Origin: Mustelus asterias
Taxonomy: Eukaryota
Length of the DNA: 64,000 bases
Assembly (NCBI RefSeq): GCF_964213995.1
Contig: NW_027590120.1
Span: 1,922,001-1,986,000 of the forward strand
Direction: 5' to 3'
The first letter of the stretch is position 1; every line of letters begins with the position of its first letter. Of the stretch, positions 1,163-37,700 are shown piece by piece. The notes beneath the pieces were generated by a model, which was given only the letters and a program-made list of their open reading frames with translations, ran no database searches and was not told where the DNA came from. The position numbers were made by a program, and so were the translations under genes.

Positions 1163-1715
<553 letters not shown>

Positions 1716-13812: not shown

Positions 13813-14969
13813 ACTGTGATGACTTTTGCAAACTCATTTCATAGGATATTGAATGAGGAATCAAAGGCAAAAATCTCAACCGTCACGTCTAGACAGAGCC
13901 ATATTCCTTGGGATCTGAATATCTTGTAATATGGAACTGTAGCTACGTTATATATTTCCAGACATCTCTTCCCTCAGAGGGTTGTTAGTCTTTTGGATTT
14001 CTCTTCCACAGGGACCAGTGGAGGCTGAGGATCATTGAATATATTCCAGTTAGACAGATCTTTGACTGACAAGGGTGTCAAGGGTTATGGGGAACAGACA
14101 AGAAGATGGAGCAAAAGCTAAGACGTGGGGGGATTTCTTCACTCAAGGATGTGGGAAAGCTTTGGAATTCTCAATCCCTGAGGACAGTGAAGCCTCAGTC
14201 ATCAACTACTTGCAAGAGAGAGATTGATTGGTTTCTAGATATTGAATATATCAAGGGATATGGGTTTAGTGTGGGGAGAATGATGCTGAGGTAGATGAAC
14301 GAATTATCTCATTGAATAGTTTAAAAGAATCGATGGGCCAAATGGCCGACTGCAGCTCCTATTTGTTATGGTCTCTGTGTCCAGGACAGGAAGCAGTGAG
14401 CATGGATCTGTCAATCAGCCTCAATCAGCACCTTCAGGAGAATTGGGAGGGTGAATATTAGATACAGCAGAGTGAGAATGGAGGGAGAGTGTGTGGGATG
14501 GAAATTTACAGCTTTTTGGGACTGAAATAGGAAAGAATGTTCCATAGAAACTAGAATTGTCTGTTCTGAATTTCTATCCTGTACTGACACTGATGACTTT
14601 TGTCAACCTGTTTTACAGGATATTGAAAGAGGAATCACAGGCCGAAATCTCAAACGTCACGTCTAGATCTGACAGAGTCATATTCCTTGGGAGCTGAATA
14701 TCATCGGACTTTGAATCTGGAAGGAGAAATGATTGTCCAGTCTGTTGATTTGAAAAGATTTGAAATGTCAGTGTGACTGGAAAAGCAGCAACACACTGCC
14801 ACACTCGAGTGAGAGTGTTCCAGTGCACTAACTAAAGAGCTTTAACCAGTTACACAGCCTGAATAAATATCACACCATTCACAGCAGGGAGAGACTGTAC
14901 CCGTGTTGTGAGTGTGGACGAGACTTCAACTGATTGTCCACCCAAGAGAGAGGTAAGGACACCTGCACC

Positions 14970-15980
14970 ATGGAGAAACCGTGGAAATGTGGGGACTGTG
15001 GGAAGAGATACAGAGCCCCATCAGAGCTGGAAGCTCATCGGCGCAACCACACTGGGGAGAGACCATTCACCTGCTCTCAGTGTGGGGAGGGATTCACTCA
15101 GTCATTCAGCCTGCAGTCACACCAGCGAGTTCACACTGGGGAGAGACCGTTCACGTGTTCTCAGTGCGGGGAGGGATTCAGTCATTTATCCAGCCTGCGG
15201 ACACACCAGCGAGTTCACACTGGGGAGAGGCCGTTCACCTGCCCTCAGTGTGGGAAGGGATTCACTTGTTCATCCAGCCTGCAGTCACACCGGCGAGTTC
15301 ACACTGGGGAAAGGCCATTCACCTGCCCTCAGTGTGGGAAGGGTTTCACTCAGTCATTCAACCTGCGGGCACACCAGCGAGTTCACACTGGAGAGAGGCC
15401 ATTCACCTGCTCTCAGTGTGGGAAGGGATTCACTCAGTCATCCCACCTGCGGATACACCACCGAGTTCACACTGGGGAGAGGCCATTCACCTGCTCTCAG
15501 TGTGGGAATGGATTCACTCAGTCATCCCACCTGCAGACACACCAGCGGGTTCACACTGGGGAGAGGCCATTCACCTGCTCTCAATGTGGGGAGGGATTCA
15601 GTCGGTCATCCCACCTGCAGACACACCAGCGAGTTCACACTGGGGAGAGGCCATTCACCTGCTCTCAATGTGGGGAGGGATTTACTCAGTCATCCCAGCT
15701 GCAGATACACCAGCGAGTTCACACTGGGGAGAGGCCATTCACCTGCTCTCAGTGTGGGAAGGGATTCACTCAGTCATCCAGCCTGCTGACACACCAGCGA
15801 GTTCACACTGGGGAGAAGCCGTTCACCTGCTCTCAATGTGCGAAGGGATTCACTCGGTCCTCCCACCTCCAGATACACCAGCGAGTTCACACTGGGGAGA
15901 GACCGTTCAGCTGCTCTGTGTGTGAGAAGAGATTCAGTCTTTCATCCGCCCTGCTGAGACACCAACAAGTTCACGAGTGA
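14970..15980 (+). CDS. C2H2 zinc-finger protein, 12 fingers, 336 aa (gene A)
   Basis: Starts at Kozak ACCATGG (MEKPWKC); 12 CxxC-x12-HxxxH units with TGERPF linkers; acceptor ttttacag ends at 14618. Confidence 0.9.
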
Positions 15981-17167
15981 TTCCAGGGGTTGTTTCTGTT
16001 ATTGTTTCTGCTCTCAATTACATCCAGGACTGCATTTTGTTCATTCTCACAGTTGGTCAATGGGGAGGGTCAGAGGGTTTCTTTCTGCTGGACTGGCCGG
16101 TCTCATGACTTTGCCTCCAGTGGGCTGATGCTCTTTGAGTCGTGTTACCAAATTTCACAAGGATCACAGAGTGACAGGGTGTGAGGAAGTTAAGAGTCAC
16201 TATTTTTGTTTGAAATCCCCTCAAATGCCCATCCAATTTCCTTTGTAATTGTTTATTGTCTCCACTTCCTCCACCCTCGTAGGCAGCAAGTTCCAGCTCA
16301 TTACCATTCGCTGCATCAAAATATTCTTCGTCACATCCCACCCCCACGCATCTCTGATCCAAAACCTTAAATCTGTGTCCCCCTCATCCTTGTCCCATCA
16401 GCTAATGGGAACAGCTTTTCTTTGTCCACCTTATCTAAACCTGTCAGAATCTTGTCCACCTCTATCAAATCTCCCCTCAACCTCCTTTGCTCCAAGGGAA
16501 ACAACCCCAGCCTGACATCGACAATAAAGAACAAACTAACAGAATATGTTAATACCTGAAATCAAATGGGAATGTTTAATTTCTGTTTTAATGATATTGT
16601 GAATATATTGTCCTGGACAATAACAGAATTGGAATAACTCACCTTGGGTGTGGTTGAATGGAATACCTCAATCTGATATCCACCTACAGTCTAGTGAAAG
16701 TGTGGAATGTGTAGCTGGAAATCCCTCCCTAACAGCACTGTGGGTGTACTTACACCTCAGGCATTGTAGCAGTTCAGGAAGGCAGTGTTGGGGTTGACCA
16801 TGGCCGAGGCAGCTACATACAGCCACATATTCTGTTATAATTGAAGGACTGCAGATTGAATGTGAGGCATTATGGGACTGGACTATCTTAACCACATTCC
16901 TGTGACTGCTCAGTTTCTGCAATCATGAACCATTAAAGCTGCTTAGCAGGGCCCCAACAGAGGACCTGGTGAGAATATTTACTCAGAATGAGCTAAAATT
17001 AGCTAAAACAAAGATTTTGCAGCTGGCAACATGTTTGGGATTTTAAATCAACAAAGACTTGATGTTTCCGATAAAATCAGGCCTTGGAAGTTGGCTAAAA
17101 AAAGTTTAAGTTATAATGAAGGGGAATGAAGGATCTTGTGTCTTATTTTAATCAAGGAGTTGTGAGC

Positions 17168-18082
17168 TTAGACCATAAGACACAGGAGCAGAATTAGGCC
17201 ACTCGGCCCATCGAGTCTTCTCCGCTATTCAATCATGGCTGATATTTTTCTCATCCAAATTCTCCTGCCTTTTCCACATAACCCCTGATCCCCTTATTAA
17301 TCAAGAACCTATCTATCTCTGTCTTACAGACACTCAATGAACTGACCTTCACAGCCTTCTGTGGCAAAGAGTTCCACAGATTCACCACTCTCTGGCTGAA
17401 GAAATTCCTCCTCATCTCTGTTTTAAAGGATCATCCCTTTAGCCTGAGGTTGTGCCCTCTAGTTTTTTCCCACTAAGTTTCAATAAGATCTCCCTTCATC
17501 CTTCTAAACTCCAATGAGTGCAGACCCAGAGTCCTCAACCATTCTTCATACGACAAGCTCTTCATTCCAGAGATCATTCTTGTGAAGCTCCTCCAGACCC
17601 TTTCCAAGACCAGCATATCGTTCCTTAGATGTGGGGCTCAAAACTGCTCACAATACTCCAAATGGGGTCTGACCAGAGCCTTATACTGTCTCAGAAGTAC
17701 ATCGCTGCTCTTGTATTCTAGCCCTCTTGACATGAATGCTAACATTGCATCTGCCTTTCGAACTGCCAACTAAACCTGCACGTTAACTTCAAGAGAATCT
17801 TGAACAATGACTCCCAAGTCCCTTTGTGCTTCTGATTTCTGAAACATTTCCCCATTTAGGAAATAGTCGATGTCTCCATTCCTCCTCCCCAAGTACATAA
17901 TCTCACACTTTTCCACATTGTATTCCATCTGCCACTTCTTTGCCCACTCTCCTAGCCCATCAAAGTCCTTCTGCAGCCCCTCTGCTTCCTCAATACTACC
18001 TGCCCCTCTACATATCTTTGTATCATCTGCAAACTTAGCAACAATGCCTTCAGTTCCATCTTCCAAATCATTAATGTATATT
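17168..18082 (-). mobile_element. CR1 LINE 3' fragment (RT)
   Basis: ORF 17770-18066 KFADDTKI...WAKKWQMEYNVEKC; CR1 3'UTR at about 17170. Confidence 0.85.
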
Positions 18083-18682
18083 GCGAAACGTTTGTGGTGC
18101 TCTGTCGCTTTAAGAAGCTATAGCTGCGAGAGAGAATGCTGAGGATTCATTGTTTGAAATTTACGAGCTGTGAGAACCTGTGTGTTTCATTTGTTTTATG
18201 TGGATGTTTGTAGATGTGTTTTATTATTGTTTTGGGCTACATTTGTTAAGGTTTATCTTTCTGGGGAATTAACCTTATCTTGAGTCTTTAATTAAAGGCA
18301 TTTCTGGAAGTTTAGAAACAGAACCACAAGAACGCTTAAGGAATTAATTTTGTTTATTGTTGTAAAGCACATGCTATGTTTCTCTGTTTGTGTGTGGATG
18401 ATATTTGTTGAATGCTTCAAGCTTTCAGGTTTTCTGTCTGTGATTTAAATCAAACATTTAAATAAAGGACGTGTAATTAATAAAGCTTTTTTTCATAAAA
18501 GTTGTGAACCTGGAGCCACATTTACTGGCCAGAGACATGATTCCAGGAAACTTTGCTAAACTTGTGGGAATTTTAATCCAGATTCAAACTCACACATATG
18601 AGTATGAGAGAGTTTTAATTGTAATGGTTATTTAAAATTTGGGACATGTGAAATAATTCTGACCATTCCTGTGTTCATTGAA

Positions 18683-19032
18683 TCATAGAATCCCTCCAGT
18701 GCAGAAGGGACCATTCGGACCATCGAGTCTGCACCATCTCTCTAACAGAGCACCTTACCCAGGCCCTCTCCCCTGCCCTATCCCTGTAATCTCACACATT
18801 TACCATGGCTAACCTATCTAACCCACACAGCTTGGGAGACGAAGAGGGAATTCAACATTGCAAATCCACTGAATCTGGGCATCTTTGGTCTGTGGGTGGA
18901 AACTGGAGCACCCGGAGGAAGCCCACGCAGACACAGGGAGAACATGCAAATTCCAAACAGACACTCACCCAAGGCTGGAATTAAATGCCTGACGCTGTGA
19001 GGTAGCAGTGCTAACCACTGTGCCACCATGTC
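18683..19032 (-). mobile_element. HE1-like V-SINE (older copy)
   Basis: Diverged match to the other SINE copies. Confidence 0.8.
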
Positions 19033-20919
19033 ACCCGATAGTTGAGGCCAAAACATTGCCTGATTTCAAGAAGATATGAGATATACTCTTGGGGCTAAAG
19101 GGATCAAGGGATATGGAAGGAAGGGGCGAATCAGGAAATTGAATTCAATGATCAGCCATGATCAAGATGAATGGTGGAGCAGGCTCAAGGGGCCGAATGG
19201 CCTACTCCTGCTTCTAGTTTCTATGTTTCTCTCCACTGGGCCAGCATTCCATCCAGTGGCACAGTGGTGAGCACTGCTGCCTCAAAAAAGCAAATACAAC
19301 AATGGCTTTGGCATCTGCTACAATGTGACTGACAGATTGACAACGGAGTCAAGGGCATCAGGAGCAAAAGATACCCTGGGAGGTGGAGAAGAATGCGACG
19401 GAGATTACGTGCGGGTCCTTGATTGGTTTTCTAAAGAGATTCAGAAAGGAAGCAGCAAGTTGGAAAAAGTCCAGAATAAATTAATTTCCAGTTACATTGG
19501 AAACCTGTTGCCTCACAGCTGAGTCCAAAATATAAAGAGTTGAGGGAACTGGTGGATAAGCTGCAGAATGGAGCTGATTGCTGGCAGGAGAGCACGTCTC
19601 ACCTGGACAATCAGTTACATTGGGAACAGGGGGCAGATGATAGGGTGAGTGGAGCTCAGAAAAATCTACTGCTGTTCGGCCAAACTCTGGAACAAGATAT
19701 TGATTTATAGTCAGAAAATATCAGATCAAGTGAAGAGTTAGAAAATGCCGTGGGGACTTTGAGGAAGTTAATTCAGCCACAAAGTGACACCTCCCCTGAA
19801 GCAGACCACTCCCTGTGTTTAGCTAACATCAAACAACCTGAGACACAAATCAGTCACCAGTGAGTAAATGTAGTTGTTTTCTCCAAAAAAAGAATCACTG
19901 AAAGCACTCCCCCTTCTCCTCTGCCTCTCCTGTGTGATAAGGGAATGCAGGTGTGTGTGATTAGCCATGACTTCTGCACCATCATGATCCACAACGCTTA
20001 CTCCAAGTTGGTTTGCCCAGTTGAAGGAATGCTGTACATTTGAGTCATAATTGTTGAAGCAGGGTGTTGTTTGAAAGCATCACAGATTCGAAGAATTAGT
20101 TTGGAAAGGGAATAAAAATTAATTTAATTTGAACTGCCGTGTGTTTCTGTTTGAAATAAATTCAGACTGTACTAAAATGTGAAAGGAATGTATTTGGGTT
20201 TGAAATTAAGTTGTTCAAGGTTAGAATTGTGAAGGCCAATTTGCTCCCAAAACACAAAGATCAGGCTGCAGTTTGGCAGCAAACCAGTTCCAACTTTCCT
20301 AAACATCTGAGTTTAAATTGTTGAGATTCGGTTAACAACATATTTCACAAAGTATTTCTTTCAACTTTGATTAAGTGGAAAATATTGAAAGTTGAAATTG
20401 GTGTTCAAAAAAGGATCGATAAAAGAGATGAAATTGGAACAAAATTGAAGAAAATAACACGAGAGAAGTTTTTTAAATTATGTAAGTTGATGCAATTGCC
20501 AAGTTTCCTCTGCCCACTCCCCGCCTCTCTCGGTTCCACAGAGAAGTTAACACTTTCAGCAGACAGTTGATTGTTATAAATCTCCACACAGCCTTTGTTT
20601 TTTAATGTAACCTATACTTGGACATATTAACTCACTGAGATCTTGGCCAGAGCCAGATGGATTGTTTGTGTTTTTTAAACAGGTGATGATGGTTTCCAGC
20701 TCTGAGTGAAGTCAACAGTTTTGAGAATTAAAGCAGAGAATAAAAGACTTTACTTTTCAGAAAACCACCAAGCCTGCTTAGGATACTGGAATTGATAAAC
20801 ATCTGATGTGAGTTGCTATTTCAAGCATTGAAAATGGAAATCACCTGTTGTTTAAGGGAAAGAACAAAGTTGATAATGCCTGGAATCAAACACAAATTTG
20901 GGGCAGCACTGTGGCACAA

Positions 20920-21262
20920 TGGTTCTCATGGCTGTCTCACAGTAAGAAGTCTCACAACACCAGGTTAAAGTCCAACAGGTTTATTTGGTAGCAAATAGGC
21001 CAGGGACCCGGTTCGATTCCTGACTTGGGTCACTGTCTGGCGGAGTCTGCACGTTCTCCCTGTGTCTGCGTGGATTTCCTCCGGGTGCTCCAGTTTCCTC
21101 CCACAGTCAAAAAGACGTGCTAGTTAGGTGCATTGGCTAGGCTAAATTCTCCCGCAGTGTGCCAGAGCAGGCGCCGGAGTGTGGCGACTAAGGGATTTTC
21201 GCAGTAACTTCATTGCAGTGTGAATGTAAGCCTACTTGTGACTAATGAATAAACTTTGACTT
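20920..21262 (+). mobile_element. V-SINE (alternative tail) carrying a ~60-bp Penelope terminal fragment at 20941-20998
   Basis: B box ggttcgattcc; inserted agtaagaagtctcacaacaccaggttaaagtccaacagg. Confidence 0.75.
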
Positions 21263-21514
21263 CAAATATTCTTAAAGTTTTTAAAGTTTATTTATTAGTG
21301 TCACAACTAGACTTGCATTAACACTGCAATGAAGTTACTGTGAAATGTTCGGTTTCTTTTTAAAGATATTATGAGTATATTTCATGTTTTAAAAGATTCT
21401 CCAGAACTCCGGAAAGTGCAGTTTAAAGGAATGCATACATTCGGGTATGGAACATTCTGGTAAAGGGGAAGTATAGATGAGGTAAATGAGGTGACAGCTT
21501 TTTCTTGGAGATAT

Positions 21515-21780
21515 TTAAAGTTTATTTATTAGTGTCACAAGTAAGGCTTATTGCAATGACGTCACTGTGAAATTCCCCTAGTCACCACATTCCGGCGCCT
21601 GTTTGGGACAATGCACCTAACCAGCATGTCTTTCAGTCTGGGAGGAAACCGGAGTACCCGGAGGAAACCGACGCAGACACGGGGAGAATGTGCAAACTCC
21701 GCACAGACAGTGACCCAAGTCGGGAATCAAACCCAGATCCCTGGTGCTGTGAGGCAGCAGTGCGAGCCACCGTGCCACCC
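21515..21780 (-). mobile_element. V-SINE (alternative tail)
   Basis: Reverse-complement match to 2560-2861. Confidence 0.75.
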
Positions 21781-22299
21781 CTTGTTTGTTTCTTTGTCCA
21801 TGAACTATTTGAGAGAACTGAATTTTATAATCTGGCCGCCATCTGAGACGTTGGGATTGTACAGGGGGAAATAAGCAAATACGTTGAGATGGAAAACCCC
21901 TTTGACCCCGGCTTTTGACTTTCTTTTGAAGTTTCCAGCAGAATTATTGGATGGTGCATCCTTTGAAAGAGAGTGGAATTCAGGATGATGATTGGTAAAA
22001 TACCCAGCACCATCGCTATAGACCTGATAAACCTTTCACAAATACACAACAAGGATTTGTGGGAGAGGACAGAGAGATAACAACAAGCAAGACAAAGTAC
22101 ATGTCTGGTTAATAACAACAACATGAGAGACAACATTTAACATGGAGGGAAATGTGTGAAGATGGCTTATGAATGTGAGACTCCAACAGAGAATTAAAGA
22201 AGGAATTGGAACACTGATGTGAGATTGCAGAATTGGTTTGTAAGTTGTGAATGAACTAATATGCGAGAGTGCACAGTGCAGCTGTATTGAAGAATGAAG

Positions 22300-22625
22300 T
22301 GTGGCACGGTGGCACAATGGTTAGCAGTGCTTCGTCATAGCGCCCAAGGACCCGGGTTCAATTCTGGCCTCGGGTCACTGTCTGTGTGGAGTTTGCACAA
22401 TCTCTCCGTATCTGCGTGGGTTTCCTCCAGGTGCTCCGGTTTCCTCCCACACTCCAAAGATATGCAGGTTAGGTTGATTGGCCATAGTAAATTGCTTCTG
22501 AGCGTCAGGCGAACTAGCAGGGTAAATAAATGGGGTTTTGGGGATAGAGCCTGGATGGGATTGTGGTCGGTGCAGACACGATGGGCCAAATGGCCTCCTT
22601 CTGCACTGTAATGATTCTATGATTC
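22300..22625 (+). mobile_element. HE1-like V-SINE
   Basis: A/B boxes, V-core, ttctatga tail. Confidence 0.85.
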
Positions 22626-23534
22626 AAATGGGACTTTCTCAGCTGCTTGACTAACAGCGTGACATGAAATGGTTAATATGACCTGAAGAGTAAGAAATCA
22701 TTTTGAAATGATCAAGGCACTGACACAGACTCCAGAGAAACTGACTGGAAGAACAAATTAAAGTAAATGGAATTTTGGACTGGGACAAATGAAGGCGCGG
22801 GAGAAATAATACTGAATAAGAATTATTACAAGATGGAGCAGGTTAAGGGACAGCTTGAGAATTGTTTTGAATCTATGCAATTTATACAGCAATTATATGT
22901 TATCACTGCTTTTATATCCAATTATACCATTTCAATTATGTCTGAAAATTAGTTGTGAGAAGGAGATTGTAAAGGGAATGGAAGTTGGCTACCTTGGGCT
23001 AAGCCAATGAGGAAAAGGGGGAAAATGCCAGAGTGAATGAATAGATTTAGTAAAAGGGGTGATAGATGTAACACCCCTGCATTAGAGTAAAATCACATGT
23101 TAATCAAATGCTCCACATCAAGGTTCTAATATCAGCAAGGTTGTTTACTTGTTTGAGGAACAAACAGTTTCTGGATTACAGACAAGTCTTTGGGTGAAGT
23201 TTTAATAATAAACCTACATAGGCAAAATAGGAATTTTTGAACAATGTTCTGTGCTCTGACTAACAGTATAACATTTATAGCTGTATTGGAGCTGGGAGCT
23301 GTGTTAGAATGCTCAGTGGGATTTGTGAGTGATCTTGGGCTTTGCAGGTTGGACTCTAGTTGTGGAGGTACTGAGTGCCCCTGGGGCAGGATTTTGGGAA
23401 ATCGCCTTTGGTTCAGGACCCCGAGGAAGATTCACATTTCTACTTGGGGTGGTCACTCAATGGAGTTAGTGAAAGTCATTATTGTTATTCATAATTTTAC
23501 CTTTCTAAAAATAAACTTTGAAATGGGAATGGGA

Positions 23535-24310
23535 AAATGAGCTGTAGTCCAGAAGCCAGTGTTGAGTGTTGTGAGGTACTGAGGAGGGTATCAAGGTTGC
23601 AGGAGTGTACCGGCAGACAGGAAGGTGGGTTGAAGTGTGTCTACTTCAATGCAAGGAGCATCTGGAATAAGGCAGGTGAACTTGGAGTGTGGATTGGTAC
23701 TTGGGACTACAATGTTGTGGCCATTACGGAGACATGGTTAGAACAGGGACAGGAATGGTTGTTGGAAGTTCTGGGGTATAGATGTTTCAGTAAGAGTAGG
23801 GAAGGTGGTAAAAGAGGTGGAGGAGTAGCATTATTAATCAAGGATAGTTTAACGGCTGCAGAAAGACAGTTCGAGGGGGATCTGCCTACTGAGGTAATAT
23901 GGGCTGAAGTTAGAAATAGGAAAGGAGCGGTCACGTTGTTAGGAGTTTTCTATAGGCCCCCAAATAGTAATAGAGATGTGGAGGAAGAAATTGCAAAGCA
24001 GATTATGGATAGGTGACTTTAACTTTCCAAATATTGATTGGAACCTTTATAGGTCAAATAGTTCGGATGGGGCAGTTTTTGTACAGTGTGTGCAGGAGGG
24101 TTTCCTGACACAATATGTGGATAGGCCGACAAGAGGTGGGGCCACATTGGACTTGGCCCGTTTCATTACCCAGTACCAAGTGTTCGGTTTGTTTGTGGGA
24201 GAGCACTTTGGAGATAGTGACCACAATTCGGTGTCTTTCGTTATTGCAATGGAGAGGGATAGGGCCGTACGGCAGGGCAAGGTTTACAATTGGGGGAGGT
24301 GGAATTATGA
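23535..24310 (+). mobile_element. CR1 ORF2 N-terminal (APE endonuclease) fragment
   Basis: LKCVYFNARSI...VAITETWL...GGGVAL...GVFYRPP...GDFNFP...SDH motifs in ORFs 23537-24446. Confidence 0.85.
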
Positions 24311-24449
24311 TGGGATTATTTTGATGCAGCGAATGGTAATGACCTGGAACTCGCTGCCTACGAGAGTGGAGGAAGTGGAGACAATAAACAATTACAAAGG
24401 AAATTGGATGAGCGTTTGGGGCATTTCAAAAATAAATGCTGACTAAATA

Positions 24450-25090
24450 TCTCTGAACTTCCTCACACCCGGTCACTCTGTCATTCTTGTGAAATTTGAA
24501 ATCAGGTATTTGCAACAAGACTCAAAGAGCATCAGCCCACTGGAGGCAAAGTTGTGAGACCGGCCAGTCCAGCAGAAAGAAACCCTCCGACCCTCCCCAA
24601 TGACCAACTGTGAGACTGAACAAAATGCAGTCCTGGATGTAATTGAGAGCAGAAACAATAACAGCAGACTCTCATCCCCATATTCACTTCTGAACTCGCT
24701 GGTGTCTCAGCAGATTCGATAACTGAGTGAATCTTTTCCCACATGCAGAGCAGTTGAATGGCCGCTCTCCTGTGTGAACTCGCTGGTGTTTCTGTAGGTT
24801 GGATGACTTACTGAATCCCTTCCCACATTGAAAGCAGCTGTATGGTCTCTCCCCTGTGTGATCTCGCTGGTGTGTCTGCAGGCTTCATATCCGAGTAAAT
24901 CCCTTCCCACACTGACAGCAGGTGAATGCACTCTCACCAGTGTGAACTTGCTGGTGTCTCTGCAGAGTGGATGAATCAGTGAATCCCTTCCCACACACCC
25001 AGCAGGCGAACGGCCTCTCCCCAGTGTGGCTGTGCCGATGAGCTTCCAGTGGAGAGGGCACTTTGTATCTCTTCCCAGTGTGTTGTGCCT
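24450..25090 (-). pseudogene. Truncated ZNF pseudogene, third copy of the gene A/B lineage, with 3'UTR
   Basis: About 4-5 degenerate fingers ([22 protein letters not shown]...) with a stop; 24450-24680 matches the gene A/B 3'UTRs; 5' end replaced at about 25091. Confidence 0.8.
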
Positions 25091-25328
25091 GATTCAATTG
25101 ACAAACAGTTTATTGAGTTACGCCAGCGGGGAGAAGCCACAGGGGCTGACCATGTGCAACTCCACCCAACAAAGAATATCATCAATTCTTATCCAGTTAC
25201 TCAGCCCATCCCGGCTGGACACAATCCAATCAGAATGGTGATAGATTACATACATTTTCGGTTCAATAAAATTAGTATCTGGGCATTATGGGGCTTTGTG
25301 ATCATCTCATGGACAGGTGCCCCATCAT
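25091..25328 (-). mobile_element. Possible short LTR (TG...CA, AATAAA near the end) truncating the pseudogene
   Basis: On the minus strand a purine-rich tract precedes TG; CCAAT-like and AATAAA signals are present; it ends ...gaatCA. No TSD verified. Confidence 0.3.
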
Positions 25329-26117
25329 GCTTTCCAGACCCCCCTTGGGGGGGGGTCTTTCTTGGGCTTTCTTTGTACATCGACTCCCTTAGTTAGAAAT
25401 GGGGCGGATTAAAAGTTCTCAAATGGACGTCAGCACCCTTCCTTTGTTTTAATCGAATGACCACATGGTCTGGGAATCATTTCTATTTAATACTCTCTCT
25501 TTTTAAACTCTTTTCTTCAGTATCCAATTCCAGAATTTTCCTTTCCTTTGTGTGACTTGTGTCAGGAATAAATCTTTGGACCTGACAGGAAGTTTAACCC
25601 AAGATCAATCCAACACAGGATTGGTCAGAATCATTTCACATGTGTCAAATTTTAAAGAACCATTACAAATTAAAACTCTCATTCTCACATGGGTGAATTG
25701 TATCCGGATTAAAATTTCCAGATGTTTAGTAAAATATCCTGGAATCCTGTCTCTGGCCAGTAAATATGGCTCCAGGTTCATAACTTCTGAACAAAAAAAG
25801 TTTTATTGATCACACTTCCTTTTTTAAAAATCTGTTTGATTTAAATCACAGACAGAAAACCTCAAAGCTTGAAGCATTCAACCTACAAATATCATCCATA
25901 CACAAACAGAGAAACTTAGCATATGCTTTACAACAACAATGACCAAAATTAATTACTTAAGCGTTCTTGTGATCCTGTTTTTAAACTTCCAAAAATGCCT
26001 TTAATTAAAGACTCAAGACAAGGTTAATTCCCCAGAAAGATAAACCTGAACAAATGTAGCCCAAAACAATGATAAAACACATCTACAAACATCCACAAAA
26101 AACAAATGAAACACACA

Positions 26118-26750
26118 GGTGGAAAAAGTGGTGAAGGCATATGGCATGCTTGCTTTTATTGGACGGGGCATAGAGTATAAAAGTTGGCACATGATGTTGC
26201 AGTTATATCGAACGTTGGTTAGGCCGCATTTGGAATACTGCGTCCAGTTCTGGTCACCACACTACCAGAAGGACGTGGAGGCTTTGGAGAGAGTGCAGAA
26301 AAGGTTTACCAGGATGTTGCCTGGTATGGAGGGTATTAGCTAGGAGGAGAGATTGAGTAAACTAGGGTTGTTCTCTCTGGAAAGAGGTTGAGGGGGCAAC
26401 CTAATAGAAGTTTATAACATTACGAAGGGCATAGATAGGGTGAACAGTTGGAAGCTTTTTCCCAGGTCAGAAATGACAAACACAAGGGGTCACAAGTTCA
26501 AGGTAAGGGGGGCAAGGTTCAATACAGATATGCGGGGGACGTATTTTACACAGAGGGTGGTGGGGGCCTGGAATGCACTGCCAAGCAAGGTGGTTGAGGC
26601 AGACACGCTAGGATCATTTAAGACTTATCTAGATAACCACATGAACAGACTGGGAATAGAGGGATACAAACGGATGGTATGTTAGGAATACATGATCGGT
26701 GCAGACTTGGAGGGCCGAAGGGCCTGTTCCTGTGCTGTATTGTTCTTTGT
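26118..26750 (+). mobile_element. CR1 LINE 3' fragment
   Basis: ORFs 26119-26685; nearly identical to 31960-32598. Confidence 0.9.
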
Positions 26751-28164
26751 ACATATTCCAGACTTTCACTCGACTGTCGGTGGATATCAGATTGGTATAT
26801 TCCATTATAGGGTCTGTTCTGTGCTGTACTGTTCTATGTTCTATAACATCTTTGTTGATTTAAAACCCCAAACACGTTACACCCAAACACCGGCAAAATC
26901 TTTGTTCTTTATCTGGGGATAAAATTCTCAGTTATTCCAAATTCCTCCAGGCTATGCTTAATATTTCCACATTTAACTTATTCCCAGAAATCCTCAATTA
27001 TAAACTAAAATAGACACATGAGTTTCCGGGCAGTCTCAGGAATATGGTCAAGATAGTCCAGTCCCACAATGCCTCACATTCAATCTGCAGTCCTTCAATT
27101 ATAACAGAATATGTGGCTGTATGTAGCTGCCTTGGCCATGGTCAACCCCAACCCCAAGGGTGCCCTTCTTGAACTGCTGCAATGCCTGAGGTGTACGTAC
27201 ACCCACAGTGCTGTTAGGAAGGGACTTCCATCGAAACACAGAAAAACTACAGCACAATACCAGCCCTTCAGCCCACAAAGTTGTGCCGAACATGTCCCTA
27301 CCTTAGCGATTACTAGGCTTACCTATAACCCTCTATCTTACTAAGTTCCATGTACTTATCTAAAAGTCTCTTAAAAGACCCAATCGAATCCGCCTCCACC
27401 ACCGTTGCTGGCAGCCCATTCCACGCACCCACCAACCTCTGAGTGAAAAACTTACCCCTGACATCTCCTCTGTACCTACCCCCCAGCACCTTAAACCTGT
27501 GTGGTCTTGTGGCAACCATTTCAGCCCTGGGAAAAAGCCTCTGACTATCCACTCGATCAATACCTCGCAACATCTCATACACCTCTATCAGGTCACCCCT
27601 CATCCTTCATGTCTCCAAGGAGAAAAGACTGAGCTCACTCAACCTATCCTCATAAGGCATGTCACCTAATCCAGGCAACATCCTTGTAAATCTCCTCTGC
27701 ACCCTTTCTATGATTTCCACATCCTTCTGTAATGAGGCGACCAGAACTGAGCACAGTACCCCAAGTGTGGTCTGACCAGGGTCTTATATAGCTGCAACAT
27801 TATCTCACGACTCCTAAGCTCAATTCCTCGATTGATGAAGGCCAGTACACCATCCGCCTTCTTAACCACAGCCTCAACCTGCACAGCTGCTTTGAGCGTC
27901 TTACGAACTCTGACCCCAAGATCTTTCTGATCTTCCACTCTGCCAAGAGTCCTACCATTAATATTATATTCCGCCATCCTATTTGACCTGCCAAATGAAC
28001 CACCTCACACTTATCTGGGTTGAACTCCATCTGCCACTTCTCCACCCAGTCTTGCATCCTATCAATGTCTCGCTGCACCTTCTGACATCTCTCCACACTA
28101 TCCACAACACCTCCAACCTTTGTGTCATCAGCAAACTTGCCAACCCATCCTTTCACTTCCTCAT

Positions 28165-30863
28165 GGAATTGCGGATAGCGAAGAGCATTGTCGGGCAATA
28201 CAGCAGGATATCGATAGGCTGGAAAATTGGGCGGAGAGGTGGCAGATGGAATTTAATCCGGATAAATGCGAAGTGATGCATTTTGGAAGAAATAATGTAG
28301 GGAGGAGTTAGAACATAGAACATAGAACATTACAGCGCAGAACAGGCCCTTCGGCCCACGATGTTGCACCGACCAGTTAAAAAAAAAACTGTGACCCTCC
28401 AACCTAAACCAATTTCTTTTCGTCCATGAACCTATCTACGGATCTCTTAAACGCCCCCAAACTAGGCGCATTTACTACTGATGCTGGCAGGGCATTCCAA
28501 TCCCTCACCACCCTCTGGGTAAAGAACCTACCCCTGACATCGGTTCTATAACTACCCCCCCTCAATTTAAAGCCATGCCCCCTCGTGCTGGATTTCTCCA
28601 TCAGAGGAAAAAGGCTATCACTATCCACCCTATCTAAACCTCTAATCATCTTATATGTTTCAATAAGATCCCCTCTTAGCCGCCGCCTTTCCAGCGAAAA
28701 CAATCCCAAATCCCTCAGCCTCTCCTCATAGGATCTCCCCTCCATACCAGGCAACATCCTGGTAAACCTCCTCTGCACCCTCTCCAAAGCCTCCACATCC
28801 TTCCTGTAATGTGGGTACCAGAACTGCACACAGTACTCCAAGTGCGGCCGCACCAGAGTTGTGTACAGTTGCAACATAACGCTACGACTCCTAAATTCAA
28901 TCCCCCTACCAATAAACGCCAAGACACCATATGCCTTCTTAACAACCTTATCTACTTGATTCCCAACTTTCAGGGATCTATGCACACATACACCTAGATC
29001 CCTCTGCTCCTCCACACTATTCAAAGTCCTCCCGTTAGCCCTATACTCAACACATCTGTTATTCCTACCAAAGTGAATTACCTCACACTTCTCCGCATTA
29101 AACTCCATCCGCCACCTCTCGGCCCAACTTTGCAACCTGTCTAAGTCTTCCTGCAAACTACGACACCCTTCCTCACTGTCTACCACACCACCGACTTTGG
29201 TGTCATCAGCAAATTTGCTAATCCACCCAACTATACCCTCATCCAGATCATTAATAAATATTACAAACAGCAGTGGCCCCAAAACAGATCCCTGAGGTAC
29301 ACCACTTGTAACCGCACTCCATGATGAATATTTACTATCAACCACCACCCTCTGTTTCCTATCCGCTAGCCAATTCCTGATCCAATTTCCTAGATCACCC
29401 CCAATCCCATACATCTGCATTTTCTGCAGAAGCCTACCATGGTGAACCTTATCAAACGCCTTACTAAAATCCATATATACCACGTCCACTGCCTTGCCCC
29501 CATCCACCTCCTTGGTCACTTTCTCAAAAAACTCAATAAGGTTAGTAAGGCACGACCTACCTGCCACAAAACCATGCTGACTATCACCTATCAATTCATT
29601 ACTCTCCAAATAACTATAAATCCTATCCCTTATAATTTTTTCCAACATCTTGCCGACAACAGAAGTGAGACTCACCGGTCTATAATTCCCGGGGAAGTCT
29701 CTGTTCCCCTTCTTAAACAATGGGACAACATTCGCTAACCTCCAATCTTCTGGTACTATACCAGAGGCCAACGACGACCTGAAGATCAGAGCCAGAGGCT
29801 CTGCAATCACTTCTCTTGCCTCCCAGAGAATCCTTGGATAAATCCCATCCGGACCAGGGGATTTATCTATTTTCAGACCCTCCAGAATATCCTGCACATC
29901 CTCCTTATCAACTGTAATACTGTCTATTCTACTCCCTTGCAACCCAGTGTCCTCCTCAGCTATATTCATGTCCCCTTGCGTGAACACCGAAGAGAAATAT
30001 TGGTTCAATGCTTCACCAATCTCCTCCGGTTCCACACATAACTTCCCTCTGCCATCTATAACTGGCCCTAAACTTGCCCTAACCAACCTTCTGTTCTTGA
30101 CATACCTATAGAACGCCTTAGGATTCTCTTTAACCTATACAATAAATGGCAGAGTCATCAGGAGTATAGAAACACAGAGGGACCTAGGTGTGCAAGTCCA
30201 CAAATCCTTGAAGGTGGCAACACAGGTGGAGAAGGTGGTGAAGAAGGCATATGGTATGCTTGCCTTTATAGGATGGGGTATAGAGTATAAAAGCTGGAGT
30301 CTGATGATGCAGCTGTATAGAACGCTGGTTAGGCCACATTTGGAGTACTGCGTCCAGTTCTGGACGCCGCACTACCAGAAGGACGTGGAGGCATTGGAGA
30401 GAGTGCAGAGAAGGTTTACCAGGATGTTGCCTGGTATGGAGGGTCTTAGCTATGAGGAGAGATTGGGTAGACTGGGGTTGTTCTCCTTGGAAAGACAGAG
30501 AATGAGGGGAGATCTAATAGAGGTGTACAAGATTATGAAGGGTATAGATAGGGTGAACAGTGGGAAGCTTTTTCCCAGGTCGGAGGTGACGATCACGAGG
30601 GGTCATGGGCTCAAGCTGAGAGGGGCGAAGTATAACTCAGACATCAGAGGGACGTTTTTTACACAGAGGGTGGTGGGGGCCTGGAATGCGCTGCCAAGTA
30701 GGGTGGTGGAGGCAGGCACGCTGACATCGTTTAAGACTTACCTGGATAGTCACATGAGCAGCCTGGGAATGGAGGGATACAAACGATTGGTCTAGTTGGA
30801 CCAAGGAGCAGCACAGGCTTGGAGGGCCGAAGGGCCTGTTTCCTGTGCTGTACTGTTCTTTGT
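28165..30863 (+). mobile_element. CR1 LINE (middle element; pieces 28165-28308 and 30136-30863)
   Basis: HFGRNNVGRS|YTINGR continues across the inner insert; TCAT is duplicated at 28161-28164 and 30864-30867. Confidence 0.85.
28309..30135 (-). mobile_element. Young 5'-truncated CR1 LINE (inner element) with an uninterrupted 560-aa RT-containing ORF
   Basis: ORF 28404-30086 with [35 protein letters not shown]; (TGTTCTA)n tail at 28309-28330. Confidence 0.95.
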
Positions 30864-31080
30864 TCATCCAGGTCATTTATAAAAATCACAAAGAGTAAGG
30901 GTCCCAGAACAGATCCCTGGGGCACTCCACTGGTGACCGACCTCCATGCAGAATATGACCCGTCTATAACCACTCTTTGCCTTCTGTGGGCAAGCCAGTT
31001 CTGGATCCACAAAGCAATGTCCCCTTGGATCCCATGCCCCCTCACTTTCTCAATAAGCCTTGCATGGGGCACCTTATCAA

Positions 31081-32598
31081 GTTTCCAGTTACTGAGAGAG
31101 ACAAGAGATGAAATTGCTGGGCCTCTCACAAAAATCTTTGTTTCTTCATTGGACACAGGTGAGGTCCCAGAGGATTGGAGGATAGCAAATGTGGTCCCGT
31201 TATTTAAGAAGGGTAGCAAGGATAACCCGGGTAATTATAGGCCAGTGAACTTGATGTCCGTGGTAGGGAAATTGTTGGAGAAGATTCTTAGAGATAGGAT
31301 CTATACACATTTAGAACTGAATAATCTCATTAGCGATAGACAACATGGTTTTGTACAAGGGAGGTCATGCCTCATAAATTTGGTTGAGTTTTTTGAGGAG
31401 GTGACAAAAATGACTGACGAGGGAAGGGCCGTGGATGTCGTCGACATGGATTTTAGTAAAGCGTTTGACAACGTCCCTCATGGAAGGCTGGTGCAAAAGG
31501 TTAAATCTCACGGGATCAAAGGTGAACCAGCTAGATGGGTACAGAACTGGCTTAGCCATAGAAGACAGAGGGTAGCAGTGGAGGGGTCTTTTTCTGATTG
31601 GAGGTCTGTGACTAGTGGTGTTCTACAGGGCTCTGTATTGGGACCTCTGCTGTTTGTGATATATATAAATGATTTGGAGGAAGATGTAGCTGGTGTGATC
31701 AGTAAGTTTGCGGACGACACAAAGATTGCTGGAGTTGTGGATTGTGATGAACATTGTCAGAGAATACAGCAGGATATAGATAGGCTGGAAAATTGGGTGG
31801 AGAAATGGCAGATGGAATTTAATCCAAATAAATGTGAAGTGATGCATTTTGGTAGATCTAATGCAGGGGGGAGCTATACAATAAATGGCAGAACCATCAG
31901 GAGTATAGACACACAGAGGGATCTGGGTGTGCAAGTCCACGATCCTTAAAGGTGGCAGCACAGGTGGAAAAGGTGGTGAAGAAGGCATATGGCATGCTTG
32001 CCTTTATTGGGGCATAGAGTATAAAAGTTGGCACATGGTGTTGCAGTTATATGGAACGTTGGTTCGGCCGCATTTGGAATACTGTGTCCAGTTCTGGTCA
32101 CCACACTACCAGAAGGACGCGGAGACTTTGGAGAGAGTACAGAAAAGGTTTACCAGGATGTTGCCTGGTATGGAGGGTATTAGCTATGAGGAGAGATTGA
32201 GTAAACTCGGGTTGTTCTCCCTGGAAAGACGGAGGTTGAGGGGCGACCTAATAGAAGTTTACAAAATTACGAAGGGCATAGATAGGGTGAACAGTTGGAA
32301 GCTTTTTTCCAGGTCAGCAATGACAAACACAAGGGGTCACAAGTTCAAGGTAAGGGGGGCAAGGTTCAATACAGATATGCGGGGGACGTATTTTACACAG
32401 AGGGTGGTGGGGGCCTGGAGTGCACTACCAAGCAAGGTGGTTGAGGCAGACACGCGAGAAACATTTAAGACTCATCTTGATAACCACATGAACGACTAGG
32501 AATAGAGGGATACAAATGGATGGTCTAGTTAGGAACACATGATCAGCGCAGGCTTGGAGGGCCGAAGGGCCTGTTCCTGTGCTGTATTGTTCTTTGTG
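31081..32598 (+). mobile_element. CR1 LINE 5'-truncated (RT, frameshifted)
   Basis: ORFs 30819-31949 and 31927-32499 with RT motifs; CR1 3'UTR. Confidence 0.9.
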
Positions 32599-33196
32599 CT
32601 TTAAAATAGACACATGAGTTTCCGGGCAGTCACAGGAATGTGGTCAAGATAGTCCAGTCCCACAATGCCTCACATTCAATCTGCAGTCCTTCAATTATAA
32701 CAGAATATGTGGCTGTATGGAGCTGCCTTGGCCGTGGTCAACCCCAACCCCAAGGGTGCCTTCCTGAACTGCTGCAATGCCTGAGGTGTACGTACACCCA
32801 CATTGCTGTTAGGAAGGGACTTCCAGCTACATATTCCAGACTTTCACTGGACTGTAGGTGAATATCAGATTGATATATTCCATTCAACCACACCCAAGGT
32901 GTGTTATTCCAATTCCTTTATTGTCCAGGACAATACATTCACAATATCTTTCAAACAGAAATTAAACATTCCCATTTGATTTCAGACAGTAACATATTCT
33001 GTTAGTTTGTTCTTTATTGTCAATGTCAGGCTGGGGTTGTTTTCCTTGGAGCAAAGGAGGTTGAGGGGAGATTTGATAGATGGGGGACAAGATTCTGACA
33101 GGTTTAGATAAGGTGGACAAAGAAAAGCTGTTCCCATTAGCTGATGGAACAAGGACGAGGGGGGACACAGATTTCTTGTTTTGGGTTAGAGATGCA

Positions 33197-33270
33197 AGGG
33201 AGGGGGGAGTGGGGGGCTGGGGGGGGGGGGGGGGGGGGGCAGTGGGGTGGGGGGGGAATTGAGGGGGGAG
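33197..33270 (+). repeat. Poly-G / G-rich tract (21 consecutive G at 33219-33239)
   Basis: Seen directly. Confidence 0.9.
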
Positions 33271-33399
33271 ATGTGAGGAAGAATATTCTGATGCAGTGAA
33301 TGGTAATGACCTGAAACTCGCTGTCTATGAGGGTGGAGGAAGTGGAGACAATAAACAATTAAAAAGGAAATTGGATGGGCATTTGGGATGTTCCAAACT

Positions 33400-34465
33400 G
33401 AACGAAGAACAAAGAAAATTACAGCACAGAAACAAGCCCTTCGGCCCTCCAAGCCTGCAGCAACCATGCTGCCCGTCTGAACTAAAACCCCCTACCTTTC
33501 CGGGACCATATCCCTCTATTCCTATGCTATTCATATATTTGTCAAGACACATCTTAAAAGTCACTATCGTATCTGCTTCCACTACCTCCCCCGGCAACAA
33601 GTTCCAGGCACCCACCACCCTCTGTGTAAAAAACCTGCCTTGTACATCTCCTTTAAACCTTGCCCCTCGCACCTTAAACCTATGCCCCCCAGTAACTGAC
33701 TCTTCCACTCTGGGAAAAAGCTTCTGACTATCCACTCTGTCCATGCCCCTCATAATCTTGGAGACTTCTATCAGGTCTCCCCTCAACCTCCGTCGTTCCA
33801 GTGAGAACAGACCAGGTTTCTCCAAACTCTCCTCATAGCTAATGCCCTCCACACCAGGCAACATCCTGATAAATATTTTCCGTACCCTCTCCAAAGCCTC
33901 CACATTCTTCGGGTAGTGTGGTGACCAGAATTGAACACTAGATTCCAAGTGCGGTCAAACTAAGGTTCTATAAAGCTGCAACATGACTTGCCAATTTTTA
34001 AACTCAATGCCCCGGCCGATGAAGGCAAGCATGCCATATGCTTTCTTGACTACCTTCTCCACCTGCATTACCACTTTCAATGACCTGTGTACCTGTACAC
34101 CGAGATCCCTCTGCCTATGAATGCTCTTAAGGGTTCTGCCATTTACTGTATATTTCCATTCTGTATTAGACCTTCCAAAATGCATTACCTCACATTTGTC
34201 CGGATTAAACTTCATCTGCCATCTCTCCGCCCAATTCTCCAACTGCTCTATATCCTGCTGTATCCTTTGCCGTTCCCCATCGCTATCCGCAATTCCACCA
34301 ACCTTTGTGTCGTCCACAAACTTACCAATCAAACCAGTTACATTTTCCTCCAGATCATTTATATATATTACAAACAGCAAAAGTCCCAGCACTGATCCCT
34401 GCGGAATGTCACTTGTCACAGCCCTCCATTCAGAAAGGTACCTTTGCACTGCCAACCTCTGTTTT
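33400..34465 (-). mobile_element. CR1 LINE 3' fragment inserted downstream of gene B
   Basis: ORFs 33955-34455 and 33325-33948 with RT and C-terminal motifs. Confidence 0.9.
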
Positions 34466-34706
34466 CTTCTGACTAAATATCTCTAAACTTCCTAACACCC
34501 TGTCACTCTGTGATCCTTGTGACATTTGAAACCAGGTATTTGCAAAAAGACTCAAAGAGCATTAACCCACTGGAGGCTGAGACCAGCCAGTCCAGCACAA
34601 AGAAACCCTCTGACCCTTCCCATTGACCAACTGTGAGAATGAACAAAATGCAATCCTGGATGTAATTGAGAGCAGGAACAATAACAGCAGAATCCAACCT
34701 CTGGAA

Positions 34707-36812
34707 TCACTCGTGAACTTGCTGGTGCCTCAGCAGCCGGGATGAAACGCTGAAACCCTTCCCACACACAGAGCAGGTGAACGGCCTCTCCCCAGTGTGA
34801 ACTCGCTCGTGCGTCTGCAGGTTGGATAACTGAGTGAATTCTTGCCCGCACTGAGAGCAGGTGAACGGCCTCTCCCCAGTGTGAACTCGCTGGTGTGTTT
34901 GCAGGTTGGAAAGCTGAGTGAATCCCTTCCCACACTGAGAGCAGGTGAACGGCCTCTCCCCTGTGTGAACTCGCTGGTGTGCCCGCAGGCTGGATGACTG
35001 AGTGAATCCCTGCCCACACTGAGAGCAGGTGAATGGTTTCTCCCCTGTGTGAACCCGCTGGTGTGTCCGCAGGTCGGATGACCGAGTGAATCCCTTCCCA
35101 CACTGAGAGCAGGTGAATGGTCTCTCCCCAGTGTGAACTCGCTGGTGTGTCTGCAGGCTGGATAACCGAGTGAATCCCTTCCCACACTGAGGGCAGGTGA
35201 ACGGTCTCTCTCCAGTGTGAACTCGCTGGTGTGTCCGCAGATGGGTTGACCGAGTGAAACCCTTCCCACACTGAGAGCAGGTGAACGGCCTTTCCCCAGT
35301 GTGAACTCGCTGGTGTGTCTGCAGGCTGGATAACTGAGTGAATCCCTTCCCACACTGAGAGCAGGTGAACGGCCTCTCTCCAGTGTGAACTCGCTGGTGT
35401 CTCTGCAGGCTGGATAACTGAATGAATCCCTTCGCACACTGAGAGCAGGTGAATGGTCTCTCTCCAGTGTGAACTCGCTGATGTGTCTGCAAGTGGGATG
35501 ACAGAGTGAATCCCTTCTCACATTGAGAGCAGGTGAACGGTCTCTCCCCAGTGTGAACTCGCTGATGTCTCTGCAGGTGGGATGACCGAGTGAATCCCTT
35601 CCCACACTGAAAGCAGGTGAATGGGGGCTTCTCCCCAGTGTGAACTCGCTGGTGTGCCCGCAGGTCGGATGACCGAGTGAATCCCTTCCCACACTGAGAG
35701 CAGGTGAACGGCCTCTCCCCAGTGTGAACTCGCTGGTGTGCCTGCAGGTTGGATAACTGATTGAATCCCTTCCCACACTGAGAGCAGGTGAACGGCCTCT
35801 CCCCAGTGTGAATTCGCTGGTGTGTCAGCAGGCTGGATGACCGAGTGAATCCCTCCCCACACTGAGAGCAAGTGAATGGCCTCTCCCCTGTATGAACTCG
35901 CTGGTGTGTCCACAGCTCGGATAACTGAATGAATCCCTTCCCACACTGAGAGCAGGTGAATGGCCTCTCCCCAGTGTGAACTCGCTGGTGTCTCTGCAGG
36001 CTGGATAACTGAGTGAACCTCTTACCACACTGAGAGCAGGTAAATGGCCTCTCTCCAGTGTGAACTCGCTGGTGTCTCTGCAGGCGGGATGACTGAGTGA
36101 ATCCATCCCCACACTGAGAGCAGGTGAACGGCCTCTCCCCAGTGTGAACTCGCTGGTGTATCTGCAGGCTGGATAAATGAGTGAATTCCTTCTCACACTG
36201 AGAGCAAGTGAACGGCCTCTCTCCAGTGTGAACTCGCTGGTGTGTCTGCAGGTGGGATGACTGAGTGAATCCCTCCCCACATTGAGAACAGGTGAACGGC
36301 CTCTCTTCAGTGTGAACTCGCTGGTGTGACTGCAGGCGGGATGACCGAGTGAATCCCTCCCCACACTGAGAGCAGGTGAACGGCCTCTCCCCAGTGTGAA
36401 CTCGCTGGTGTGTCTGCAGGCTGGATAAATAAGTGAATTCCTTCTCACACTGAGAGCAAGTGAACGGCCTCTCTCCAGTGTGAACTCGCTGGTGTCTCTG
36501 CAGGCTGGATATCCGAGTGAATCCCTTCCCACACTGAGAGCAGGTGAAGGGCCTCTCCCCAGTGTGAACTCGCTGGTGTCTCTGCAGGTGGGATGACTGA
36601 GTGAATCCCACCCCACATTGAGAGCAGGTGAACGGCCTCTCCCCAGTGTGAACTCGCTGGTGTCTCTGCAGGTTGGATAACTGACTGAATCCCTTCCCAC
36701 ATTGAGAGCAGATGAACGGCCTCTCCCCAGTGTGGCTGCGCCGATGAGCTTCCAGCTCTGATGGGGTTCCGTATCCCTTCCCACAGTCCGCACATTTCCA
36801 TGGTTTCGCCAT
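34707..36812 (-). CDS. C2H2 zinc-finger protein, 25 fingers, 701 aa (gene B)
   Basis: Uninterrupted ORF MAKPWKC...HQQVHE starting at ACCATGG; acceptor ttttccag at about 37164; inverted paralog of gene A. Confidence 0.9.
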
Positions 36813-37599: not shown

Positions 37600-37700
37600 A
37601 TTCCATTGTGACGTCACACACTCACCCATTCCATTGTGATGTCACACCCTCACCCATTCCATTGTGACCTCACACTCTCACCCATTCCATTGTGACGTCA
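37600..37700. repeat. 28-bp minisatellite, about 3.5 units, with CRE sites
   Basis: Unit attccattgtgacgtcacacactcaccc; perfect TGACGTCA in the first and last units. Confidence 0.85.

What the first reader, a model, noticed from the sequence alone, without database searches (positions are those of the whole stretch)
14970..36812. Effector-less ZNF arrays diversifying like PRDM9: 12 vs 25 fingers in otherwise near-identical paralogs
Seen: genes A and B have highly similar 5' and 3' flanks, but their arrays differ in length. The 84-bp units are homogenised ([15 protein letters not shown] backbone) while the recognition helices vary widely ([49 protein letters not shown]...). No KRAB/SCAN/BTB/SET domain is encoded; the proteins are essentially all fingers. 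Established: this homogenised-backbone, variable-contact pattern is the signature of PRDM9 and of fast-evolving TE-targeting KRAB-ZNFs. Inference: this may be a chondrichthyan ZNF repertoire that generates new DNA specificities by unequal exchange, possibly a KRAB-independent TE-recognition system. This is the best candidate for an undescribed system in the window.
Basis: partly seen in the sequence, partly recalled or inferred. Interest (0 to 1): 0.78.

Follow-up and report, generated by a model that had tools for sequence, protein, structure and literature searches.

The report
Shark finger-only genes reshuffling DNA-reading fingers
Two sister shark genes have reading frames made only of zinc fingers (12 and 25), with the fingers in unmatched order and most varied at the positions that read DNA, so they are likely a fast-changing set of DNA readers, probably aimed at jumping genes, with no known silencing domain attached.

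Summary
Observation confirmed, with two corrections. A (12 fingers) and B (25) are intact, finger-only reading frames, but their flanks are 91-94% identical, not near-identical, and units are no more alike within a gene than between genes. In-frame stops 12 and 6 codons before a Kozak ATG, and a frameshifted leader holding fossil fingers, leave little room for an effector exon. Interior fingers are non-collinear mosaics from a shared pool. Contact positions -1/3/6 are more diverse than synonymous sites (0.43 vs 0.14, p=0.006); an allele-count test was not significant. The PRDM9 statistic (0.39-0.48) lies at the low end of true PRDM9s, a level some ordinary ZNF genes also reach. The leader marks a family found in seven shark species; five other genes in the window lack this pattern. 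A conserved acidic, proline-bearing lead finger is a candidate cofactor dock. Expression, polymorphism and transposon targeting are untested. Published counts show thousands of shark ZNF ORFs, but nine searches found no description of this family. New variant of a known kind.

The parts
14970..15980 (+). Gene A reading frame, 336 aa, 12 C2H2 fingers, ATG in ACCATGG context; in-frame stop 12 codons upstream
34707..36812 (-). Gene B reading frame, 701 aa, 25 C2H2 fingers (one extra Pro in linker 15), ATG in ACCATGG context; in-frame stop 6 codons upstream
14970..15050 (+). Lead finger of A (helix APSELEA): family-typical, Pro at +1, acidic at +5, outside the shuffled pool
36732..36812 (-). Lead finger of B (helix TPSELEA); 7 of 84 nt differ from A's lead finger
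15051..15890 (+). Ten interior 84-bp units of A: mosaic, contact-diverse
34797..36731 (-). Twenty-three interior 84-bp units of B: mosaic, contact-diverse, not collinear with A
14619..14969 (+). Leader of A's finger exon after a conserved acceptor: frameshifted linker, decayed fingers, short upstream ORFs; inferred 5' UTR
36813..37163 (-). Leader of B's finger exon, 8% diverged from A's; inferred 5' UTR
9600..10020 (+). CpG-rich promoter-like segment upstream of A, homologous to 38167-37752; role inferred (CCAAT, NRF1-like and ETS-like labels recalled)
12276..12421 (+). Family exon-1-type donor (GT at 12284) and the short downstream segment that catshark RefSeq model P0130 joins to the leader
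5100..5625 (+). Second CpG-rich promoter-like segment with the same exon-1-type donor (GT at 5625); alternative first exon for A, inferred
37255..38170 (.). CpG island between B and C; fused at 37256 directly to the end of B's intron (inferred deletion); 28-bp repeat 37599-37700 supplies donor-like sites at 37625, 37653 and 37681 (-)
24314..25090 (-). Third member of the A/B subfamily: 5'-truncated, about 5 fingers, one in-frame stop; 3' flank 7-9% from A and B
3..455 (-). Control paralog Z0: 107 of 112 residues identical to Mustelus asterias model P0154, with the same helices
39373..62630 (.). Other family members C, D, E, F, G and a decayed copy near 54.0-54.4 kb: same leader and lead finger, heterogeneous arrays

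Best explanation
A and B are finger-only C2H2 reading frames of a shark-wide gene family whose interior fingers are in unmatched order and unusually varied at DNA-contact positions, likely because recombination among the 84-bp units keeps remixing them while selection favours new contacts, most likely to recognise fast-changing repeated DNA such as retrotransposons. Shown: intact frames beginning at a Kozak ATG on the first finger; stops and frameshifts in the leader; non-collinear units; a constrained backbone; contact sites more diverse than synonymous sites. Inferred: a short non-coding first exon is spliced to the finger exon; gene conversion and unequal exchange mix a pool of unit variants older than the A/B duplication; the proteins bind DNA. 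Least supported: the targets are transposons, and the proteins act by occupying them and recruiting a partner through the fingers themselves, the conserved acidic lead finger being the candidate dock. I put about 0.8 on the architecture and reshuffling, 0.65 on diversifying selection at contacts, and 0.45 on transposon targets.
For: Finger-only; 5 of 32 leader indels are multiples of 3 (pairwise indels, not independent); no effector in 124 of 124 upstream frames; none seen in the 27 leader-profile hits, whose N-termini share no visible domain; catshark models P0123 and P0130 appear to join promoter-side segments to the leader and end before any finger. Reshuffling: the best collinear A-B chain costs 85 differences against 78.1 +/- 3.3 for shuffled orders; 111 of 171 site pairs fail the four-gamete test; 14 of 19 informative sites are polymorphic in both genes. 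Selection: pairwise dN/dS at -1/3/6 is 3.5 (A; bootstrap 2.0-6.8) and 2.9 (B; 1.9-4.5), backbone 0.25 and 0.23; per-site diversity 0.43 at 6 contact sites, 0.14 at 14 fourfold sites (p=0.006; p=0.008 without CpG-prone sites) and 0.05 at 41 backbone sites. Control: Z0 keeps its helices in Mustelus asterias (107 of 112 identical), while only 1 of 8 helices of the A/B-type array in that model occurs in B and none in A. Context: 475-3,586 ZNF ORFs in eight chondrichthyan assemblies, and a ZNF-retroelement correlation across animals (PMC10547256). Lead finger: Pro at +1 in 7 of 8 and acidic +5 in 7 of 8 window genes, against 1 and 0 of 84 later fingers; both together in 2 of 1,438 fingers from 158 non-shark proteins.
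Against: Counting distinct alleles gave omega 1.22 at contacts (0.92 without CpG changes; p=0.34 and 0.65), so relaxed constraint is not excluded. Pairwise dN/dS is unreliable under conversion (PMC5519329), and the site test rests on 6 contact sites (3 after the CpG filter for A+B). Linkage did not decay with distance (rho 0.006, p=0.53), so recurrent mutation could explain part of the mosaicism. Synonymous divergence between units (0.19-0.20) exceeds flank divergence (0.06-0.09), so turnover is slower than in mammalian PRDM9. No binding or target data exist. B has lost the family's usual exon-1 donor, and several neighbours are broken. Loss of finger-only OZF did not raise LINE-1 expression in HEK293 cells (PMC8896011). 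End units of any tandem array escape exchange, which could explain the lead finger's retention.
Confidence: 0.5

Rival explanations
1. Mechanical turnover: the array is a coding minisatellite in a repeat-rich cluster; unequal exchange changes finger number and order, selection only keeps fingers folding, and contact residues drift freely without a specific target.
For: Allele-count omega near 1 at contacts; positions 1 and 5 also vary (dN/dS 1.2-1.6); many decayed paralogs; concerted evolution arises sporadically in repeat proteins (PMC5100051).
Against: Contact sites exceed fourfold sites threefold in diversity, also without CpG sites; 25 fingers remain intact over 2.1 kb.
Confidence: 0.22
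2. The proteins are fast-changing readers of non-transposon DNA (satellites, the ZNF clusters themselves, gene promoters) or act as decoys competing with other DNA-binding proteins.
For: Same sequence signals as the best explanation. Wells et al. note satellites as ZNF targets and no ZNF-retroelement correlation in birds or flies. OZF binds LINE-1 without measurable repression.
Against: Transposons are the documented driver for the comparable KZFP and FiNZ families.
Confidence: 0.18
3. The finger exons are the DNA-binding half of a split PRDM9-like system or are PRDM9-derived: an effector is supplied by a distant exon or a partner, and they steer meiotic recombination.
For: PRDM9 statistic 0.39-0.48 overlaps complete PRDM9s (0.33-1.0 in Table 1); between-finger DNA diversity 0.12 resembles pike (0.11), eel (0.13) and green turtle (0.12) PRDM9.
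Against: No SET, SSXRD or KRAB upstream; in-frame stops just before the ATG; whale shark has its own complete PRDM9; most family members have ordinary arrays. Descent from shark PRDM9 was not tested.
Confidence: 0.06

Closest known systems
FiNZ-ZNF family of cyprinid fish (PMC10547256; read parts 1-2 of 9, passages, and a supplement search)
   Same: Large lineage-specific, clustered, KRAB-independent tandem-ZNF family with a finger exon preceded by a small exon; positive selection at base-contacting residues.
   Different: FiNZ genes encode a conserved 28-aa acidic N-terminal domain; here the leader is frameshifted and translation starts at finger 1. Repression was shown in zebrafish and is untested here.
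ZNF146/OZF (PMC8896011; passages read)
   Same: Protein of C2H2 fingers only; binds LINE-1.
   Different: OZF is one highly conserved mammalian gene; here there is a multi-copy family with reshuffled arrays.
PRDM9 finger minisatellite (PMC5519329; section 25, part 1 of section 10, passages, 30 of 51 supplement rows)
   Same: Similar 84-bp units with diversity concentrated at contact positions; P 0.39-0.48.
   Different: No KRAB, SSXRD or SET; low end of the range (human 0.687, mouse 0.910); between-finger DNA diversity 0.12 against 0.079 and 0.034; units shared between paralogs.
Young mouse KZFP clusters (PMC5363842, PMC11952569; passages read)
   Same: Transposon-rich clusters; close paralogs differ by tandem duplication of fingers; frequent pseudogenes.
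   Different: They carry KRAB and recruit TRIM28; KRAB-box families are reported as depleted in cartilaginous fishes (PMC8455134, passage).

Membership tests
PRDM9 | KRAB, SSXRD and PR/SET domains N-terminal to the array | tested here: not met
   0 of 124 upstream frames matched; in-frame stops before the ATG
PRDM9 | [quoted passage not shown] | tested here: met
   P=0.388 and 0.419 (0.461 and 0.477 without finger 1) on Baker's columns V11, V12, V15, V18; low end of 0.33-1.0
PRDM9 | Strong concerted evolution within one array | tested here: inconclusive
   Units 88% identical, but no closer within than between genes, p=0.33
PRDM9 | Allelic polymorphism of array length; germline expression; hotspot binding | not testable with these tools
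   No read data could be examined
KRAB-ZNF (KZFP) | KRAB exon in frame with the finger exon | tested here: not met
KRAB-ZNF (KZFP) | Clustered tandem fingers in a single 3' exon, diversifying at contacts | tested here: met
   About 11 loci in 64 kb
FiNZ-ZNF | Conserved coding N-terminal peptide on its own exon | tested here: not met
   Leader indels 5 of 32 in multiples of 3; leader out of frame with the fingers in A and B. A FiNZ profile itself was not run.
Finger-only ZNFs (OZF-like) | Protein made only of C2H2 fingers | tested here: met
   0 and 1 residues outside 28-aa units; assumes the predicted ATG is used
Transposon-targeting ZNFs (functional class) | Binding to, and repression of, transposon sequences | not testable with these tools
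   No motif predictor, transposon library or ChIP data available

The most novel reading that the evidence does not exclude
Sharks run a third, effector-free zinc-finger defence against transposons, parallel to KRAB and FiNZ: many finger-only genes whose conserved acidic lead finger docks a silencing cofactor, and a young subfamily that builds new DNA specificities by recombining sub-finger pieces from a pool shared across paralogs.
Probability: 0.2. Interest if true: 0.85.

Novelty: new variant of a known kind. Interest (0 to 1): 0.52.

Why it matters
Chondrichthyan genomes hold up to 3,586 tandem-ZNF ORFs and up to 242,270 retroelement ORFs, yet KRAB-box families are reported as depleted in them. 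How they control transposons is open. A family that translates fingers only, with a recognisable lead finger and a subfamily under PRDM9-like turnover, gives concrete genes to test. It would show whether sequence-specific silencing needs a separate effector domain, and whether PRDM9-style array evolution can arise outside meiosis.

Tried and rejected
No whole genome was held, so subfamily size and genome-wide ranks are unknown. Sequencing runs: 20 of 22 listed runs hold part of B's flank (best share 0.61); no RNA holder listed. No reads were laid, so splicing, expression and array polymorphism stay open. Whole-protein search with A returned generic ZNFs (54% identity at rank 1; 2 chondrichthyan proteins among the 120 listed). 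A leader search among longer proteins found nothing (2 candidates; weak evidence). The Atlas gave generic zinc-finger clusters only. IQ-TREE printed no omega. Linkage-decay test negative, and identity in B did not depend on unit spacing. Of 27 leader-profile hits, 17 were looked up and all were sharks; P0134, P0139 and P0142 look spurious; 7 were not looked up. Rows dropped: first and last fingers of A and B in the interior analyses (and the allele counts); B finger 15 partly masked in the dN/dS and removed (allele counts). The background (115 of 120 hits; median 0.272, maximum 0.434) was selected by similarity to A and is biased. The shark rows were chosen by the motif, so only the window counts are unbiased. 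Rejected: assembly artefact (all units distinct); leader as a FiNZ-like coding domain (frameshifts); long alternative frames over the arrays (by-products of the repeat). Motif prediction against transposons was not attempted. No look-alike earlier finding by sequence. Paper searches listed no study of this family; subscription journals are mostly absent from the library, and three supplement files of PMC10547256 were not searched and may discuss sharks.
Full report
What is there. The window is a cluster of about eleven C2H2 zinc-finger loci among retrotransposon fragments. Gene A (14970-15980, +) encodes 12 fingers and gene B (36812-34707, -) encodes 25. Every finger keeps its structural residues, and the proteins have 0 and 1 residues outside 28-aa units. 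Their flanks differ by 6-9%, so they are recent but not near-identical paralogs. A third, truncated member with a stop lies at 24.3-25.1 kb.

Are they effector-less? Each finger exon begins at a conserved acceptor 351 nt before the ATG. That leader holds a linker and decayed fingers; among six paralogs only 5 of 32 pairwise indels are multiples of three. In-frame stops lie 12 (A) and 6 (B) codons before an ATG in ACCATGG context. By inspection, no pyrimidine-rich acceptor lies between the stop and the ATG. A Pfam scan of 124 upstream frames gave four frames with weak, below-cutoff matches and no KRAB, SCAN, BTB or SET. A profile of the leader found 27 proteins. The 17 looked up come from seven shark species, their N-termini share no visible domain, and no effector family appeared. 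Two catshark RefSeq models appear to join promoter-side segments homologous to those in the window to the leader and end before the fingers; the mapping is direct for P0130 and by my reading of the translations for P0123. Their RNA support was not checked. The likely gene is a CpG-island promoter, a short non-coding exon, and a finger exon translated from finger 1. Expression was not tested.

How the arrays evolve. Interior units are 88% identical within A, within B and between them, and gene-specific clustering is absent (p=0.33). The order does not match: the best collinear chain is worse than most shuffled orders (85 against 78.1 +/- 3.3), only one helix is shared, 111 of 171 site pairs fail the four-gamete test, and 14 of 19 informative sites vary in both genes. 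Synonymous divergence between units (0.19-0.20) exceeds flank divergence. I infer that the variants predate the duplication, or pass between paralogs, and are remixed by conversion and unequal exchange. Linkage shows no decay with distance, so recurrent mutation may contribute.

Selection. Pairwise dN/dS at -1/3/6 is 3.5 and 2.9 against 0.25 and 0.23 in the backbone. Conversion undermines that measure, so I also compared sites: 0.43 diversity at six amino-acid-changing contact sites against 0.14 at fourteen fourfold sites (p=0.006; 0.008 without CpG-prone sites). Counting distinct alleles instead gave 1.22, not significant; that measure saturates, but it leaves relaxed constraint open. Neighbours C, D, F and G give contact dN/dS of 0.5-1.7. 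Z0 keeps its helices in Mustelus asterias (107 of 112 residues identical), whereas the A/B-type array in the same model shares 1 of 8 helices with B and none with A. Fast turnover therefore marks one subfamily, not the whole family.

How PRDM9-like? On Baker et al.'s columns, A and B score 0.39 and 0.42 (0.46 and 0.48 without finger 1), against 0.24-0.32 for five neighbours. Complete PRDM9s span 0.33-1.0, and copies scoring 0.41-0.50 rank 6th to 11th in cow, turtle and salmon, so a few per cent of other ZNF genes reach this level. The arrays behave like a slow PRDM9 array, but the genes fail the domain test for PRDM9.

The first finger has Pro at +1 in 7 of 8 window genes and an acidic residue at +5 in 7 of 8, against 1 and 0 of 84 later fingers; the pair occurs in 2 of 1,438 non-shark fingers. 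A skate protein has a similar first finger. An acidic helix suits DNA contact poorly (general knowledge), so it is a candidate protein dock. End units escaping exchange is the plain alternative.

Mechanism and comparison. The most likely reading is a repertoire of fast-changing DNA readers aimed at transposons, acting by occupancy and by recruitment through the fingers. This rests on analogy: FiNZ-ZNFs repress transposons without KRAB, ZNF and retroelement counts correlate across animals, and finger-only OZF binds LINE-1, though its loss did not raise LINE-1 expression. Finger-number plasticity among paralogs is known in mouse KZFPs. Wells et al. tabulate 475-3,586 ZNF ORFs in eight chondrichthyan assemblies, but their main text does not name sharks or cartilaginous fishes. 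Nine searches found no account of this family.

Verdict. The feature is real and the architecture well supported; selection at contacts is probable; the function is untested. New variant of a known kind, interest 0.52.

Noticed in passing
window 14950-14958 (+) and 36832-36824 (-): A and B both carry a strong donor-like site (GT at 14953 and 36829), 17 nt before the ATG and absent from the other aligned paralogs; it could splice the array out of some transcripts.
   Followed up: no
window 37256: B's promoter-like segment is fused to the end of its intron, removing the usual exon-1 donor; a 28-bp tandem repeat nearby offers substitute donor-like sites.
   Followed up: partly
window 13357-13923: Partial duplicate of A's acceptor region, interrupted by a roughly 360-bp interspersed repeat found many times in the window (SINE-like is my recalled label).
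   Followed up: no
window 39373-40704: Gene C has an intact 14-finger frame but ACA where paralogs have the lead ATG; the first Met is residue 146 of the open frame.
   Followed up: no
window 51304-52606: Gene E is split by a frameshift near 52.05 kb, and its array shows a three-finger (252-bp) period.
   Followed up: no
window leaders of A, B, C, D, F, G: A TGA at the same place in the first fossil finger is shared by all six, suggesting the leader was cut off once in their ancestor.
   Followed up: partly
window 23522-34482: Dense LINE fragments between A and B: RVT_1 hits at 28404-30134 (-) and 30750-31949 (+), endonuclease hit at 23522-24016.
   Followed up: no
window 10760-12265; 8452-9372; 49920-50700: Retroelement-like fragments, one inserted just before the donor at 12284. 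The Tx1/L1-like and Penelope-like labels are recalled; Pfam gave no hit.
   Followed up: no
proteins P0154, P0125, P0155, P0159: Public gene models appear to fuse neighbouring finger genes with retroelement or histone H2A sequence, so annotation of these clusters is unreliable.
   Followed up: partly
protein P0108 (Hemitrygon akajei): A stingray protein has a similarly homogenised array on a different backbone (backbone identity 0.905, 43% of diversity at -1/3/6 over 5 fingers), hinting at a parallel subfamily in rays.
   Followed up: partly
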